DNA of 64,000 nucleotides, from contig JANNIH010000072.1 of the NCBI GenBank assembly GCA_031404815.1, forward strand, positions 12,100 to 76,099. The letters run 5' to 3'. The position numbers are program-made. Below, in pieces: positions 48,001 to 54,000 of this stretch. The stretch comes from Holophagales bacterium (GTDB taxonomy: Bacteria > Acidobacteriota > Thermoanaerobaculia > Multivoradales > UBA5704). Positions within the stretch are counted from its first letter, which is position 1; each line of letters begins with the position of its first letter.

Positions 48001-51000
48001 GGCAGGGCAGACGGGCGCGCGCTTTCGGGTGCGCAGGAAATCGATCACCAACAGCAGCCGGTGGACGCCGTAGAACGACAGAATCCCGAGGATCAGATAG
48101 TAGGACCCGAGGAGGGCCGTTGCCCAAGGCTGCTGCATCGTCAGGAGATTCCGATCTCGAACGCCGTTCGGCCCACCCGGCCGGCGGGCGCAGCGTCGCA
48201 CTCGTTTTCGCGGCCCTGCCGCCGATCGCTACGAGCCTCGCTCTCCTGCTGCTGTACGATCTTGCCCGTCATCCGGCTTTCACCCTGCTCGTTCTCGGCC
48301 TCGGTGCGGCCGGTCTCTGGTTTTCGGCACACTTTCTCAAGCGCGCCGCGGCGGTTCCGGTTTCGCTCGGCAGGGTGATTCTCGGGGTCGCGCTGCTGAT
48401 CCGACTGCTCGTGATCGCGCTGCCGCCAACCCTTTCGGACGATGCGTTCCGCTATCTCTGGGACGGCCGGGTCGCCGCGGCCGGTTGGAACCCGTACCGT
48501 GAGCCCCCCGATTCCCCGCGACTCGCGCCCCTGCGCGACGATCTCTGGCGGCGCCTGCCGCACCGCGCAGTGCCCACGGTCTACCCACCGCTCGCCCTGT
48601 CGGCGTTCAGTATAGCTGCGCGCTTTCCGGTTCCGTTACCGATTTGGAAGCTGTTGGCGACAGCTGCGGACTTCGGCGCCTGTGCCCTGCTGCTCGCGCT
48701 CGCCCGTCGTACCGGCCTGCCCGAAGCCAGGGTCACCTGGTACGCCTGGAATCCGCTCGTCGTGCTCGAAGTCGCGGGGATGGGGCACGTCGATGCCCTC
48801 GGGGCGGCCGCCTGCATCGGCGCGGTGCTCGCCCTTTCGATCGTTCCCCGTCGGCCGCTCGCGGCGAGGACCGCCTGGCTTGCAGGAACGGCCGCCGCCG
48901 CGGGCATTCTCGCCAAGCTGGCGCCGCTCGCCGCCCTGCCCATGTGGGCGCGCCAGAGCCGCAGACCCTGGGCGTTTCTGCTCGCCGCTCTCGGTCTTTC
49001 CGGCTTGGCGCTCGCGCCCGTGATCGTTTCGGTCGGCGGCCTGCCTCCGGGGCTCGCCACGTACGGAGTCTCATGGGAGTTCAATGGTCCGCTCTACGAG
49101 CCGCTCTGGCGCGCGCTCGAGCTTCTAGGAACCGGCCCGGCTGCGCACGCGGTGCTCGACGTGGCGAAAGCGCGCACCGGGTGGTGGACGTTCTGGAACC
49201 GCTTCTACCCTTACGCCTATCCGCGTTTCTTCGCCAAGCTGCTGCTCGCCGGCCTCGCGCTCGCCGCGGTCGCGGCGTCGTTTAAAGAGCGCGATCCGGT
49301 CACCGGCACCGGCCGCCTGTTCGGCCGGTTGATGCTCACTTCCGCCACGCTCTACCCCTGGTATCTCCTCTGGGTGCTCCCTTTTGCGGCTCTTCGCGAG
49401 GAGCGGCACTGGTTGCTGCTCGCAGCGCTCGCGCCGCTCGCCTATGTGCCCGCGCTGTTCGGCGTGCCGCTCTGGCCCTGGGTCTACCTCTCCATCTGGG
49501 CGCCGTTCGCGCTCTACTCTCTGCTGGGAAAACGATGGTCGCCCTCCTGACCCTCTCCTACCGCGGCACCGCCTACGCCGGCTGGCAGAGGCAGGAGAAC
49601 GCGCTCGCGGTCCAGCAGGTGGTCGAAGAGGCGCTCGCCCGACTGCTCGGACTGCCTGAAGAGAACATCCGGATCGTGGGAGCCAGCCGCACCGACGCGG
49701 GAGTCCACGCCCGCGGCCAGAGGGCGCACCTCGACCTTGCGGGCGTCGGCCGCCCGGATTTTCCCCTCCGCGGCCTGGTCCACGGCACGAACCACCACCT
49801 GCCGGAAGACATCCGCGTCCTCGCGGCTAGGGAAGTTCCGGAAGGGTTCCACGCCCGGAAATCCGCCGTCTCCAAGCAATACCACTACCGCCTGAGCCGC
49901 GCGGAGGTCCTCTCGCCGCTCGATTCGCCGTTCGCGGTGAAGGTCTCGCCGGGGATCGACCTCGATCGCCTGAACCAGGCCGCGGATCTTCTTCCCGGCC
50001 GCCACGATTTCACCGCCTTCACCCTCGCCGGAGCCGCCCCGGGCGACCGCCATCGCGCGATGTTCGCCGCGGGGTGGACGGAAGAGGGGGAAGAGCTGCA
50101 TTTCCGCATCGAAGGCGAAGGCTTCCTCCGCGGCATGGTGCGCGGCCTGGTCGGAACCATGATCGAAGTCGGCCTCGGCGCTCGCTCTGTCGAGGACTTC
50201 GGACGGCTATTGGCCGGAGCAGCCAGGAGCGAGGCCGGGCCTACGGCTCCGGCGCAGGGGTTGGTCCTCGAGTGGGTGCGTTATGGGGATCCGATTTCCT
50301 AGCTCTGCTGACCGGTGCCGTCGAAACGAATCCTGGGCAGGAACGCGGCAAGAATTCCGATCCTGATCGCCACTCCGCCGGGCACCACCTCGACCAGCCC
50401 AAGGTCGCGCAGGTGCTCGACATCTCGCTTGATCACCCGGTCGGTGCTGTTGGCATAGGCCTCCGCCAGGCGCGGACTCAACCTGCGAATCTGCGCCAGT
50501 GGCGTCGGCCCCGCATGGTCGCTGAGATCGAGCGCCAGCCGACGGCGGCGAACCTGCATTCGACTGTCCTGGTCGCGGAACTGCTCATGGACATAGTTGA
50601 TCCAGTGGGTCCGGAACTGTTGCTCGCGAATGGACTCGATTTGCTGCCTCAGCTCGTCGACAAATCCGTGAAGCGCGTACTCCACGAACACCATCGGGTC
50701 TCTCTTGCGGTGCGATTCGTCGAGCTTTAGAGCTGCCGAAAGTCGTCTTGAAGCTCCGGCAGCAGGAGGGAACCGACGACATGCTGCACCTTCGACTGCG
50801 CTTCGCCCATCAAGAGCCAAAAGCTCGGAGGAGCCAAGGACAGGTCCAGTCGAAACGAAATCCACGGATGCGTCTGCTCGAACGACCGGGTAGCTGGCAT
50901 TCTTTTCGGCTCCGCAAACAACTTACGGCATTGACTTTGTTCGAGCTGTCACAAAATTCCGGCAGCCATGATAGCGCACCTGACGACAAAGAAGAGAGCA

Positions 51001-54000
51001 TGAAGGAGTGCGTGCCGGTAGCTTCCGCTGGGAGGAGTGAGGGGCGGCGCTCAGCCGTGCAGGGTTTGAAGCGGCCGGACCTTGCGAATCAGCTCGAAAT
51101 CGCTGTCGTCGTGGAGGAGCGTCGCGCCTTGTTCGAGCGCGATCTGCGCGATCAGGCAGTCGATCGTGCTCCGCAGTGTGATCCCCTTCCGACGGCAATC
51201 GAAGTAGATCCGGGCCGCTTCTCGGTGACTTGTTTGCGGATCGGCCTCCGACACCATCTCGAGGCCGCCGAGATAGTCCTCAAGGAGGCGCCATTCCTTT
51301 TCATCGCGCGCCCCCTGAAGGACCTCCTGAAAGCAGACGACAGGCAGGACGAACGAAACCTGCTCGCGCTCGATCTGGTCGAAAAGTTCGAGGGTCGGCG
51401 ACCGATGTCCCCGCAGATAACCGATCAGGACCGAGGTATCGACCAGGATCACGATTCGACGCGGAGCGCCTTGTGGTCGTAGCCGGGCGCGAACCGGATC
51501 TTGCCTCTGAGATCCGACAGGCTCTTGCGTTTCTGGGAGGCGACGAATACCCGGAGAGCTTCGTGGACGAGATCCTTCTTCGTCTTGATTCCGCTCAGCC
51601 GGAGCGCCTCTGCGATCAGGTCGTCGTCGAGGACGATGTTTGTTCTCATGTTGGCTCCGTACACCTGATCATACACACCCCGTGCCTCAAAAGGCAAAGG
51701 GTCGGAACCATGATCGAAGTCGGCCTCGGCAATCGCTCGGTCGAGGAGAGTTCGCCGCCCACCCAACCCCATTTTTGACTCCCGCCCCCCCACCACCGTA
51801 CACTTCGCGGCCTTGCAGGGCCCCGCGGTGAGGTGCTGGAGTGGCTGAACAGGGCTGCCTGCTAAGCAGTTATCCGGGGTAAACCTGGATCGAGGGTTCG
51901 AATCCCTCCCTCACCGCCATTTCTTTTCCCTCCCGAGGACCGCAACATGGCAACCGAACTCAACGGTCCCGTCCGGGTCCGCTTCGCCCCGTCGCCGACC
52001 GGTTTTCTTCATCTCGGCGGCGTTCGCACCGCGATCTACAACGAGCTGCTGCGCCTGCATTGCGGGGGTGTGTTCGTGCTCCGCATCGAGGACACCGACA
52101 AGGCGCGCTCCGACGAGGCGATGACCCGCCAGATCCAGGACGCCCTCTCCTGGACCGGGATCTGTTGGGACGAAGGGCCGTTCCTCCAGAGCGAGCGCCT
52201 GCCGCGCCACGCCGAGCGGGCGGCCGAGTTGCTCGCCGCCGACCGGGCCTATCGGTGCTTTTGCACCTCCGAAGTGCTGGAGGCCCAGCGCGCCGAAGCG
52301 CAGAAACAGGGGGGCAGCTTCCGCTACCCGCGCACCTGCGCGCATCTCGCGGCCGATGAAATCGCCCGCCGGGTCGAGGCGGGGGAGACCTTCGTGGTCC
52401 GCTTCCGCGCGCCGGACGAAAACATTCTCTTCTTCGATCTGGTTCGTGGCGACATGGAGTTTCCGCCCGAGTCGATCGACGATTTCATCCTGCTCCGCTC
52501 CGACGGCTCGCCGACCTACCACATGTCGGTCGTGTGCGACGACATCGACATGGCGATCTCCCACGTCATCCGCGGCGAGGATCACCTGTCGAACACGCCA
52601 AAGCACGTGCCGCTCTTTTTGGCGTTCGGCGCGGCGGTGCCGACCTTCGCCCACCTGCCGCTGATTTTGGGGCCGGACAAGAAACGGCTGTCCAAGCGCT
52701 TCGGCGCCACCTCGGTCGAGGAGTTCCGCGCCGAGGGGATCTTGCCGCAGGCGCTCTACAACTACATGGCCCTGCTCGGCTGGAGCCCGGGCGAGGATCG
52801 CGAGATCCTCTCGCGCGACGAGATGGGGCGGATCTTCGATGTCGATCGTCTGAACGCCTCGGCGGCGGTGTTCGATCGCGAAAAGTTGCTCTGGATGAAC
52901 GGCCAGTACATCTTGGCTTCGATCGTCGAAGAGCTTCTGCCGCACCTCGGCCCGTTCATCCACGAGGCGGGGCTCGACGGCGCCGACCCGGCGCGCCTGG
53001 CCACCGTGCTCGAGCTACACCGCAGCCGCGCGCGTACGCTCCGCGAGCTGGTCCAGTCGGTCATCCCCTACTTCCGCGACGAGGTCCCCTACGACGCGGA
53101 GCTGTGTAAGAAGTTCCTCGCCGACCCCGAGCTGCCGGTCCACCTCGCCGCGCTGCGCGATCGCCTCGCTGAAGCCGAGTTCGAGAAAGACCCGCTCGAA
53201 GCCGCCCTGCGCGCGGTCGCAGAAGAGCGCGCGATCAAGCCGAGCGTGCTGATCCACCCGGTCCGGATGGCCCTCTCCGGAGCCACCGGCGGCCCGCCGC
53301 TGTTCGATTTGGTGGCGGCGATGGGGAAGGATGAAACCTCGCGCCACCTGGGGCATTTCATCGCGTATCTACGGCGCGGTGGGACGTTGCCGGAACATCA
53401 GGATTAGGAGTCCATCCAGGGCGGACACGTAGGTCCGCCTCTACGACTCGTGGGCCTCTGGCGCCGCGTTGCCGCGAAATCCCCTCGGGTCGCGCGCGAA
53501 AGCGCGCAGCTGGCCACAGGCGGCGCTCACGTCGTCGCCGCGGGTTTTTCGGACCGTCGCCGTGTAGCCGTGGCGGTAGAGGCGTTCTTGAAACGCGGCG
53601 GTCTGGGTCGGCGTCGAGGGGATCATCATGGGGCCGAGCACCGCATCCGGATTGGTCGGGATCAGGTTGATCTTGCAGGCGAAACCTTGGAGCAGCCCGG
53701 CGAGCTGATCGGCCTGGGCGAGCGAGTCGTTCACGTCCTGGATCAGGATGTATTCGAAGGTGATCCGCCGCCGTGGTTCCAAAGGGAATCGGCGCAGGGC
53801 GTCGAGCAGGTCGGCGAGCGGGTAGCTCCGGTTGATCGGCATGATCCGCGAGCGCAGCTCATCGTCCGGCGCGTGCAGCGAGACCGCGAGGTTCGGCCGT
53901 CGTTTCCAGCGGGCGATCTCGTCGATGCCGGGGATCACCCCCGCCGTCGAGAGCGTGATCCGACGGATCGAGATGTGCTCGGAGAGGATCTCGATCGCGG

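What the first reader, a model, noticed from the sequence alone, without database searches (positions are those of the whole stretch)
50149..51826. Insertion within the truA 3' end, upstream of tRNA-Ser: ~50-bp direct repeat brackets a wHTH gene and a VapBC module
A ~50-bp segment internal to truA (encoding GLVGTMIEVGLGARSVED) is repeated (4 mismatches) 1.5 kb downstream, 65 bp before tRNA-Ser(GCU), where it encodes a dead-end fragment (..GTMIEVGLGNRSVEESSPPTQPHF*). The intervening DNA carries the functional truA tail, a small wHTH gene and vapBC, but no integrase. This is consistent with a degraded integrative element, or a TA cassette that targeted the truA 3' end. It parallels the 48-bp-repeat TA cassette at maf.
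Basis: seen in the sequence. Interest (0 to 1): 0.6.

Follow-up and report, generated by a model that had tools for sequence, protein, structure and literature searches.

The report
Decayed toxin-antitoxin islet behind truA
A 48-base piece of the housekeeping gene truA is repeated 1.5 kb downstream; the two copies bracket a small foreign islet (an intact vapBC toxin-antitoxin pair and a broken fic gene) that has no integrase, which makes this a decaying recombination scar at a genome rearrangement point, not an active mobile element.

Summary
The repeat is real: 50149-50196 matches 51700-51747 at 45 of 48 bases, with the first 31 identical and no chance matches in shuffles.

It brackets four things:
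- the last 35 codons of truA;
It lacks 592 nt that an otherwise 98.7%-identical contig from another sample retains;
- an intact vapBC pair;
- no integrase, and no room for one.

None of 80 related Thermoanaerobaculia truA loci has the islet or a second truA fragment. Synteny with relatives stops at the truA stop codon and resumes at the tRNA-Ser promoter. In relatives the tRNA-Ser–gltX block lies elsewhere, after transketolase.

GC content drops to 0.58-0.62 across the islet. The truA tail after copy 1 is phylogenetically incongruent with the rest of the gene (p=0.006), so it probably arrived with the islet. The displaced native tail expected after copy 2 is missing. Copy 2 instead runs into tRNA-Ser upstream DNA through about 13 nt of apparent microhomology.

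The parallel cassette at maf is a clean case. A MazE/PIN pair sits between ~47-nt target duplications, and two relatives show the empty site.

Verdict: a eroded, integrase-less TA/Fic islet recombined into the truA 3' end, later rearranged. This is a known kind of structure, and interest is moderate.

The parts
49535..50302 (+). truA (tRNA pseudouridine synthase A, 255 aa), intact
   Evidence: Pfam PseudoU_synth_1, E=6.8e-31. It is 82-89% identical at the protein level to truA of related Thermoanaerobaculia MAGs, and synteny with them runs up to about 50283.
50149..50196 (+). Repeat copy 1 (T), inside truA codons ~205-221
   Evidence: the repeat finder family D1; the pattern search gave 0 chance matches. 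Its last 17 nt carry states (GCT, TCT) not seen in any close relative.
50197..50302 (+). truA 3' tail (35 codons plus stop), probably brought in with the islet
   Evidence: The tail has 7 window-specific and 2 L004-specific substitutions, against 13 and 36 in the 5' part (Fisher p=0.0056). Four of the 7 window states are shared with outgroup genomes.
50303..50312 (.). 10-nt spacer; homology to the intact-fic contig L169 ends at 50312|50313
   Evidence: blastn of L169 against the window.
   Evidence: It has no Pfam or NCBIfam hit itself. HMMER against 1.8 billion representatives gives 626 hits, and full-length ones (390-410 aa) match at residues ~255-395 and carry Pfam Fic. L169 positions 1595-2009 are 98.8% identical to it.
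50728..50921 (-). fic pseudogene, N-terminal part (64-aa ORF in another frame); the 592-nt deletion scar is at 50727|50728
   Evidence: The ORF MFAEPKRMPATRSFEQTHPWISFRLDL.. matches the N-terminus of L169 Fic (401 aa, with the HPFGDGNGR motif, Pfam Fic E=3.6e-14) and of P0124. L169 has 592 extra nt between the two matching blocks.
51051..51452 (-). vapC, PIN-domain toxin (133 aa), intact
   Evidence: Pfam PIN E=3.1e-12; NCBIfam TA_toxin_VapC equivalog at 134 bits against a cutoff of 80. The protein is identical in L168 and L169.
51449..51652 (-). vapB antitoxin (67 aa), overlapping vapC by 4 nt
   Evidence: Pfam VapB_antitoxin E=2.2e-19.
51668..51697 (-). Promoter-like site for vapBC (TTGCCT-18-TATGAT), 2 nt from copy 2
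   Evidence: Consensus scan found 2 sites against 0.2 expected. This is a consensus match only.
51700..51747 (+). Repeat copy 2 (T'), a dead-end truA fragment
   Evidence: Its first 30 nt are also present at the end of L169. Its last 17 nt keep the states of related truA genes (xAT, TCG).
51733..51774 (+). Junction into native tRNA-Ser upstream DNA (overlapping the end of copy 2), apparently through microhomology
   Evidence: CGCTCGGTCGAGG..GTTCGCCG resembles L081 CGCCCGGTCGAGG..GTTCGGCG (12/13, shuffle p=0.003) and L170 CGCTCGGTC (p=0.04), at similar distances from the -35 box. This reading is tentative.
51775..51919 (+). tRNA-Ser(gct) with its promoter (TTGACT-18-TACACT); start of the tRNA-Ser–gltX synteny block (to 53409)
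   Evidence: ARAGORN and Rfam, promoter scan. blastn homology to L081 and L082 starts at 51772-51774 and ends at 53405-53409.
11455..12339 (-). Parallel case: a MazE-type antitoxin plus PIN cassette between ~47-nt (up to 57-nt) direct repeats, at the junction of the VWA gene and maf
   Evidence: Repeat family D5 and Pfam. The empty site in L165 and L166 has the VWA gene ending at 4997 and maf starting at 5001, and a single copy of the repeat aligns to both window copies.

Best explanation
A small foreign islet, vapB-vapC-fic, was recombined into the 3' end of truA. The crossover fell within the first ~31 nt of a 48-nt segment of truA. The incoming DNA carried its own truA tail, so truA stayed intact. 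The segment ended up on both sides of the insert: T at 50149-50196 and T' at 51700-47.

The junctions look either like attL/attR or like the 'insertion with long target duplication' described for restriction-modification gene complexes. No integrase is present, and nothing shows that one was needed.

The islet then decayed and was rearranged in three ways:
- fic lost 592 nt, including its catalytic motif.
- The displaced native truA tail and the original downstream genes were lost.
- T' became fused to the region upstream of tRNA-Ser, probably through about 13 nt of microhomology.

What still functions is vapBC, a type II toxin-antitoxin pair in which the VapC PIN RNase is held in check by VapB. 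Its addiction effect would favour keeping the islet. Recombination between T and T' would remove the conserved truA tail along with the antitoxin gene, so the islet is now locked in place.

Shown here: the repeat, the gene content, the fic deletion, absence from relatives, the synteny break, the low GC and the incongruent tail. Inferred: the order of events, the recombination mechanism, and that vapBC is active.
For: - The repeat is far beyond chance.
- The 1.5 kb between the copies is fully accounted for by the truA tail, the two fic fragments, vapC, vapB and a promoter. There is no integrase remnant.
- The islet is absent from 80 related truA loci. Synteny ends at about 50283-50302 and resumes at 51772.
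- GC falls to 0.58-0.62 across the islet.
- The truA tail shows an excess of window-specific substitutions, many shared with outgroups (p=0.0056).
- All three mismatches lie in the last 17 nt. Copy 2 keeps the relatives' states and copy 1 has unique ones, as expected if the crossover was in the first 31 nt.
- L169 carries the same vapBC next to the truA fragment with an intact 401-aa Fic, which proves recent decay in the window.
- In the same genome, the maf cassette shows a TA-only insert with ~47-nt target duplication and empty sites in two relatives.
- Direct repeats of at least 24 nt flank VapC-family genes in 14 of 75 metagenomic loci, against 6 of 210 random control positions. In L100, L102, L107 and L158 the repeats duplicate the ends of neighbouring genes.
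- Insertion with 45-47 bp or longer target duplication, without mobility genes, is documented for R-M systems (PMC2853133, PMC3874152).
Against: - The expected displaced native truA tail is not found after copy 2, so at least one extra event must be assumed.
- No empty site with both flanks exists in any relative, because the right flank (tRNA-Ser–gltX) lies elsewhere in their genomes.
- In L169 the DNA beyond the fic stop codon is not truA. The islet plus truA fragment therefore exists in a second context that I could not extend.
- The tail incongruence rests on 7 substitutions against 2 in 88 nt. An unrelated recombination or faster evolution could also produce it.
- The best VapC relatives elsewhere are only 61% identical, so there is no sign of the same cassette moving between sites.
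- The segment T is only moderately conserved within truA, ranking 186 of 738 windows.
Confidence: 0.5

Rival explanations
1. The repeat is a by-product of a local chromosomal rearrangement and has nothing to do with how the islet arrived. One route is a tandem duplication joined at 51699|50149 and later trimmed by a microhomology-mediated deletion. Another is replication template switching (MMBIR-type), which copied about 33-48 nt of truA into the junction between the islet and the tRNA-Ser region.
For: - The locus is a synteny breakpoint on both sides of the 1.6-kb tRNA-Ser–gltX block.
- The genome shows other large rearrangements. rlmN lies about 3 kb from maf in relatives but 42 kb away and inverted here.
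- The right end of copy 2 overlaps sequence that resembles native tRNA-Ser upstream DNA (p=0.003), as expected of a microhomology junction.
- The first 31 nt are identical, as expected of a recent templated copy.
Against: - It does not predict the incongruent truA tail.
- It does not predict that copy 2 keeps ancestral-like states while copy 1 is unique.
- It does not explain why a second TA cassette in the same genome, and several elsewhere, are also bracketed by duplicated target sequence.
Confidence: 0.25
2. The structure is a cis-mobilizable element (CIME): the remnant of an integrase-driven integrative element that targets truA. Its attL and attR sites would still be usable by a related integrase supplied in trans.
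For: - Direct repeats of ~48 nt at the 3' end of a conserved gene, with the gene restored by element-borne sequence, are typical of such elements. The CIME definition is in PMC5704250.
- Decay is evident from the fic deletion.
- L169 shows a larger TA-rich neighbourhood in another strain.
Against: - No integrase is present here, within 6 kb of truA in any of the 80 related genomes checked, or on L169.
- No viral contig carries the core sequence.
- There is no space for arm-type sites next to either repeat copy.
- The repeat at maf has an unrelated sequence spanning a lineage-specific gene junction, an unlikely integrase target.
- Excision would truncate truA.
Confidence: 0.15
3. The repeat is a chance similarity or an assembly chimera.
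For: The window comes from a metagenome-type assembly, and short-k assemblies break at the 31-nt repeat (L168 and L169 both end there).
Against: - Shuffles gave 0 matches.
- A chimera would need two false joins within 48 nt.
- L168 and L169, from two other samples, reproduce truA–fic–vapC–vapB and vapB–copy 2.
- The fic remnant and the identical GltX are both recorded with a longest contig of 80,237 bp, which suggests they share a public contig.
Confidence: 0.02

Closest known systems
Insertion with long target duplication of restriction-modification gene complexes (Nobusato et al. 2000, Gene 259:99; Furuta et al. 2010, PMC2853133; reviewed in PMC3874152)
   Same: In both, an addiction-type gene pair with no mobility gene is bracketed by direct repeats of target sequence longer than 30 bp. 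Reported examples are 45-47 bp, some overlapping the 3' end of a gene, and others run from 100 to over 400 bp. The maf cassette in this window meets every criterion, including the empty site.
   Different: The cargo here is a toxin-antitoxin pair plus fic, not an R-M system. At truA the right flank cannot be matched to an empty site. The insert also seems to include a replacement truA tail, which a pure target duplication does not predict.
Decayed integrative elements / CIMEs in the 3' end of conserved genes (PMC5704250; ICEberg 2.0, PMC6323972)
   Same: Both have flanking attL/attR-like direct repeats, a position in the 3' end of a housekeeping gene that stays intact, loss of integration genes, and visible decay.
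   Different: No integrase-bearing relative that uses truA was found. There is no room for arm sites. The displaced native 3' end is missing.
Chromosomal vapBC type II toxin-antitoxin modules as horizontally moving cassettes (for example in chromosomal integron arrays)
   Same: It is an intact VapB/VapC pair of foreign composition, one of three PIN modules in 64 kb, and they sit at points of genome plasticity.
   Different: The flanking repeats are copies of the target gene, not attC sites. Some of the metagenomic VapC loci (L116, L120, L121, L124) do look like arrays with repeated intergenic elements.
Homology-facilitated illegitimate recombination and microhomology-mediated junctions (from my own knowledge of the natural transformation literature; the term occurs in PMC6382021)
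   Same: One junction lies in a stretch of homology (truA). The other appears to lie in ~13 nt of microhomology upstream of tRNA-Ser.
   Different: That process normally does not leave a duplicated anchor.

Membership tests
Type II toxin-antitoxin, VapBC | PIN-domain toxin of about 130 aa | tested here: met
   Pfam PIN E=3.1e-12 over residues 2-123. NCBIfam TA_toxin_VapC equivalog at 134 bits against a cutoff of 80.
Type II toxin-antitoxin, VapBC | Small antitoxin gene directly upstream, overlapping or abutting the toxin gene, on the same strand | tested here: met
   VapB_antitoxin E=2.2e-19. vapB is at 51449..51652 and vapC at 51051..51452, a 4-nt overlap.
Type II toxin-antitoxin, VapBC | Toxin RNase activity neutralised by the antitoxin; autoregulated promoter | not testable with these tools
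   Only a promoter-like consensus match was found, at 51668-51697.
Fic/DOC AMPylase | Fic motif HPFx[D/E]GNGRxxR | tested here: not met
   The motif is deleted in the window by a 592-nt deletion at 50727|50728. It is present in the 98.7%-identical L169 copy as HPFGDGNGRTAR. The window gene is a pseudogene.
Integrase-mobilised genomic island or prophage | Tyrosine or serine recombinase gene inside the repeat-bounded segment | tested here: not met
   All 1503 nt between the copies are assigned to the truA tail, fic fragments, vapC, vapB and a promoter.
CIME (decayed integrative element that keeps attL and attR) | Direct repeats flanking the element at the target gene's 3' end, with the target gene intact | tested here: met
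   The tail is incongruent with the 5' part.
CIME (decayed integrative element that keeps attL and attR) | A related autonomous element with an integrase that uses the same att site | tested here: not met
   None of 80 related truA loci (±6 kb) has a second truA fragment or islet. No viral contig has the core. The search space was limited.
CIME (decayed integrative element that keeps attL and attR) | Displaced native 3' end of the target gene beyond attR | tested here: not met
   Copy 2 is followed by 27 nt and then the tRNA-Ser promoter, with no truA-like tail.
Insertion with long target duplication (criteria of Furuta 2010) | Insert under 20 kb, carrying the addiction genes and no mobility gene | tested here: met
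   The insert is 1.5 kb, with vapBC plus a fic remnant.
Insertion with long target duplication (criteria of Furuta 2010) | Flanking direct repeat longer than 30 bp | tested here: met
   48 nt at 45/48 identity.
Insertion with long target duplication (criteria of Furuta 2010) | An empty site in a related genome where one copy of the repeat aligns with both flanks | tested here: inconclusive
   At the truA locus the left flank aligns in all relatives but the right flank does not. At the maf locus in the same window the criterion is met in L165 and L166.
Integron gene cassette | attC recombination site at the cassette boundary and an intI/attI platform | tested here: not met
   The flanking repeat is a copy of truA coding sequence, not an attC-type element, and no intI lies nearby. 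The whole window was not scanned for intI.

The most novel reading that the evidence does not exclude
vapBC-type toxin-antitoxin cassettes may move as minimal autonomous units. The process would be integrase-independent and would duplicate tens to hundreds of bases of the target (~47-48 nt at both sites in this genome). That is the same unexplained 'insertion with long target duplication' reported for restriction-modification systems, and it would point to a general, still unknown route by which addiction modules enter chromosomes, perhaps through repair of staggered or double-strand breaks.
Probability: 0.2. Interest if true: 0.65.

Novelty: new member of a known kind. Interest (0 to 1): 0.35.

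Why it matters
How chromosomal toxin-antitoxin modules spread is poorly understood. They are often called mobile cassettes, yet usually have no transposase or integrase.

This window offers one clean case and one decayed case of TA cassettes bracketed by ~47-48 nt of duplicated target sequence. The clean case, at maf, has empty sites in relatives. The decayed case, at truA, has a replaced gene tail, a freshly broken fic gene and a neighbouring rearrangement. Similar structures occur in unrelated metagenomic loci.

Together these link TA modules to the 'long target duplication' phenomenon so far described for restriction-modification systems. They also show TA modules sitting at synteny breakpoints in an uncultured Acidobacteriota lineage.

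Taken alone, the truA locus is an ordinary scar of horizontal acquisition and decay.

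Tried and rejected
- **Family searches on the 'wHTH' ORFs.** Pfam and NCBIfam gave nothing, and the word-indexed homolog search found only 2 proteins. Only the exhaustive HMMER search plus Pfam on its full-length hits showed that the ORF is the C-terminal part of a Fic protein.
- **Recurrent truA target.** I looked for a second truA fragment near truA in 80 related genomes and found only chance hits of 17-27 nt.
- **Phage attP.** An exact search for the repeat core in viral contigs found no hits.
- **Recent mobility of the cassette.** I searched metagenome contigs for close copies of VapC; the best was only 61% identical.
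- **Exact-protein look-ups.** TruA, VapB and GltX of the window were not on record, so the same-species truA locus could be compared only through two short Logan contigs.
- **Rfam.** The region holds only the tRNA.
- **Rejected: tRNA-Ser as the integration target.** No part of the tRNA is repeated, and the islet lies on its 5' side.
- **Rejected: an attC/integron origin.** The repeat is truA coding sequence.
- **Rejected: T as the most conserved stretch of truA.** It ranks only 186 of 738 windows, so conservation alone does not single it out as a recombination site.
- **Could not do.** The tools would not let me extend L169 beyond its 2.6 kb.

Full report
**Observation.** The window holds a 48-nt direct repeat at 50149-50196 and 51700-51747. 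Identity is 45/48. The first 31 nt are identical and all three mismatches fall in the last 17 nt. A search allowing 3 mismatches finds only these two sites, and none in 100 shuffles. In 80 related loci, the longest chance matches between truA and its ±6 kb flanks were 17-27 nt.

Copy 1 lies in truA (49535..50302; Pfam PseudoU_synth_1). Copy 2 ends 79 nt before tRNA-Ser(gct) at 51827-51919. It sits in a dead-end reading frame ending ..GNRSVEESSPPTQPHF*.

**What lies between the copies.** The 1503 nt are fully accounted for.
- 50197-50302 is the truA tail.
- On the minus strand come vapB (51449..51652, Pfam VapB_antitoxin) and vapC (51051..51452, PIN; NCBIfam VapC equivalog at 134 bits against a cutoff of 80).
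- A promoter-like site (TTGCCT-18-TATGAT, 51697-51668) begins 2 nt from copy 2.
- The 'small wHTH gene' has no Pfam or NCBIfam match. An exhaustive HMMER search gave 626 relatives. Full-length ones are 390-410 aa, match it at residues ~255-395, and carry the Fic domain.
- The overlapping 64-aa ORF (50727..50921) matches Fic N-termini.

A Logan contig from another sample (L169, SRR20217202) is 98.7% identical to 51729→50728 and to 50727→50313. It carries 592 extra nt between these two blocks. That gives an intact 401-aa Fic with the HPFGDGNGR motif. The window's fic is therefore a pseudogene with a clean, frame-shifting 592-nt deletion at 50727|50728. No integrase remnant is present, and there is no room for one.

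**Comparison with relatives.** The organism is a Thermoanaerobaculia (Acidobacteriota) MAG. Its closest truA proteins are 82-89% identical (L001, L002, L061, L003, L004).

Synteny with all of them runs for kilobases upstream and stops at about 50283, the end of truA. L001, L002 and L003 share the same genes downstream of truA; in L001 these look like a small lipoprotein, an inositol-monophosphatase-like gene and sulfate adenylyltransferase/APS kinase, judged by eye from ORF translations. None of these genes occurs in the window. No relative has vapBC, fic or gltX within 6 kb of truA, and none has a second truA fragment.

In relatives the tRNA-Ser(gct)–gltX block follows transketolase (L081, L082, L170). 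Homology to the window starts at 51772, at the tRNA-Ser promoter TTGACT, and ends at 53409. The stretch 50303-51771 is thus a junction between two synteny blocks. Its GC falls to 0.58-0.62, against 0.65-0.71 around it. In L082, two small unannotated ORFs (93 and 104 aa, no Pfam match) sit directly upstream of the same tRNA-Ser promoter.

**Is the truA tail native?** I compared lineage-specific substitutions across the gene. In the 5' 614 nt the window has 13 private changes and L004 has 36. In the 88-nt tail the window has 7 and L004 has 2 (Fisher p=0.0056). Four of the window's 7 states are shared with more distant genomes.

The mismatches within the repeat fit this pattern. Copy 2 keeps the states of related truA genes (xAT, TCG). 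Copy 1 has unique states (GCT, TCT).

This is what is expected if incoming DNA crossed over within the first ~31 nt of the repeat and supplied a new tail. The numbers are small, so I treat this as moderate support.

**The far side of copy 2.** A simple insertion predicts the displaced native tail after copy 2. It is not there. Instead, the end of copy 2 and the next 27 nt (CGCTCGGTCGAGG…GTTCGCCG) resemble the DNA upstream of the tRNA-Ser promoter in relatives:
- L081: CGCCCGGTCGAGG…GTTCGGCG, 12/13, shuffle p=0.003;
- L170: CGCTCGGTC, p=0.04;
- in each case at a similar distance from the -35 box.

I read this, tentatively, as a microhomology-mediated junction that removed the native tail and joined the locus to the tRNA-Ser block.

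The genome has clearly been rearranged elsewhere too. In relatives rlmN lies about 3 kb downstream of maf. In the window the two are 42 kb apart and inverted relative to each other.

**The parallel cassette at maf.** A MazE-type antitoxin plus PIN toxin (Pfam) lies between repeats at 11455-11511 and 12283-12339.

In two relatives (L165 and L166) the VWA gene ends at 4997 and maf starts at 5001. Their single copy of the sequence aligns to both window copies. This is a TA-only insert of about 780 nt with a 46-48 nt target duplication and no mobility gene. The same-species assembly L164 has the cassette but lacks the neighbouring IS.

**Is this general?** Among 75 metagenomic loci encoding VapC relatives, 14 have direct repeats of at least 24 nt flanking the VapC gene. 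Only 6 of 210 random control positions do.
- Some are repeated intergenic elements in cassette arrays (L116, L120, L121, L124).
- In L102 (83 nt), L107 (31 nt), L100 (~260 nt) and L158 (361 nt) the repeats duplicate the end of a neighbouring gene and leave a dead-end fragment.

The literature describes exactly this for restriction-modification systems as 'insertion with long target duplication'. Reported repeats are 45-47 bp, some overlapping gene 3' ends, or hundreds of bp, and the mechanism is unknown (PMC2853133, PMC3874152). My searches found no paper describing it for toxin-antitoxin cassettes, but those searches were limited.

**Explanation.** The most likely history (about 0.5) has three steps.
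1. The fic–vapBC islet, with a truA 3' end attached, recombined into truA at the 48-nt segment and left the segment on both sides.
2. A microhomology-mediated rearrangement then replaced the distal flank.
3. fic decayed.

The main rival (0.25) is that the truA fragment is a scar of a local rearrangement, such as a trimmed duplication or a template switch, unrelated to how the islet arrived. A CIME-type remnant of an integrase-driven element (0.15) is weakened by four points:
- there are no arm sites;
- no integrase-bearing relative was found;
- the maf repeat has an unrelated sequence;
- the native tail is missing.

Artefact or chance is about 0.02. Independent contigs L168 and L169 reproduce the structure.

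**How it works now.** vapBC appears intact. VapC is identical in three assemblies, so it probably acts as an addiction module. Recombination between the two copies would delete vapB and the conserved truA C-terminus, so loss of the islet should be counter-selected. This last point is inference.

**An unresolved point.** In L169 the DNA beyond the fic stop is not truA. It is other small ORFs: a 72-aa ORF with no Pfam match and a partial ORF that looks DUF433-like by eye. Homology to the window ends 10 nt past the truA stop. L169 may represent a larger ancestral islet, a later insertion, or a different location. The tools could not extend it, so this could not be settled.

**Verdict.** The feature is real and mostly correctly read by the first stage. 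It is an eroded, integrase-less TA/Fic islet at the truA 3' end that also marks a synteny breakpoint. It is a new member of a known kind, and of moderate interest mainly because it joins the maf case in linking TA cassettes to long target duplications.

Noticed in passing
window 11455-12339 (minus strand); empty sites at L165 4983-5013 and L166 4983-5013: A MazE-type antitoxin plus PIN toxin cassette (~780 nt) is inserted exactly between the stop codon of a VWA-domain gene and the start of maf. It has a 46-48 nt (up to 57 nt) duplication of the junction and no mobility gene. Two related genomes show the uninterrupted site.
   Followed up: yes
window 11561-11998 (minus strand): The PIN toxin of the maf cassette has a complete PIN domain when translated from 11998. 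The first ATG/GTG/TTG lies about 36 codons downstream of the catalytic N-terminus (..LLDTS..). It may therefore use a non-canonical start or already be disabled.
   Followed up: partly
window 9560-10861: An IS481-family insertion sequence (394-aa transposase with HTH, LZ_Tnp_IS481 and rve domains) has perfect 48-nt terminal inverted repeats and lies directly after maf. It is absent from the 99.6%-identical same-species assembly L164, so the insertion is recent and strain-specific.
   Followed up: partly
window 8673-9298 (plus strand): A third PIN-type module (75-aa upstream ORF plus 135-aa PIN protein) sits at another point where gene order differs from relatives. No flanking direct repeat was found.
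   Followed up: partly
window 10869-17259 and 53460-55983, compared with L165 and L166: In relatives, VWA–VWA–maf is followed within about 3 kb by an M20 peptidase and rlmN. In the window, rlmN follows gltX, 42 kb away and in the opposite relative orientation, and the M20 peptidase is missing. This points to an inversion-like rearrangement in this species.
   Followed up: partly
L169 1-2583 (Logan contig, SRR20217202): This contig has the same vapBC (VapC 100% identical) with an intact 401-aa Fic, flanked on the far side by other small ORFs (a 72-aa ORF with no Pfam match and a partial ORF that looks DUF433-like by eye) instead of truA. It starts inside the truA-fragment repeat.
   Followed up: partly
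L082 7160-7781: In a related genome, two small unannotated ORFs (93 and 104 aa, no Pfam match; possibly a toxin-antitoxin pair) sit directly upstream of the same tRNA-Ser(gct) promoter.
   Followed up: no
L102 1888-1970 / 4038-4120; L100 1318-1575 / 2375-2635; L158 2612-2972 / 4643-5003; L107 3511-3541 / 4398-4428: Unrelated metagenomic vapBC loci are bracketed by direct repeats of 31-361 nt that duplicate the end of a neighbouring gene and leave a dead-end fragment. L102 also has a 36-nt repeat after each of two successive TA pairs.
   Followed up: partly
window 28159-28249 and 28342-28396; L082 9503-9557: A ~44-nt GC-rich element occurs in tandem in the window. A neighbouring 55-nt stretch is 91% identical to intergenic DNA after gltX in a related genome. 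It may be a REP-like dispersed repeat.
   Followed up: no
window 12409-17372: Two adjacent large VWA-domain genes are paralogues, seen as repeat families at a spacing of 2616-2676 nt with 72-74% identity.
   Followed up: no
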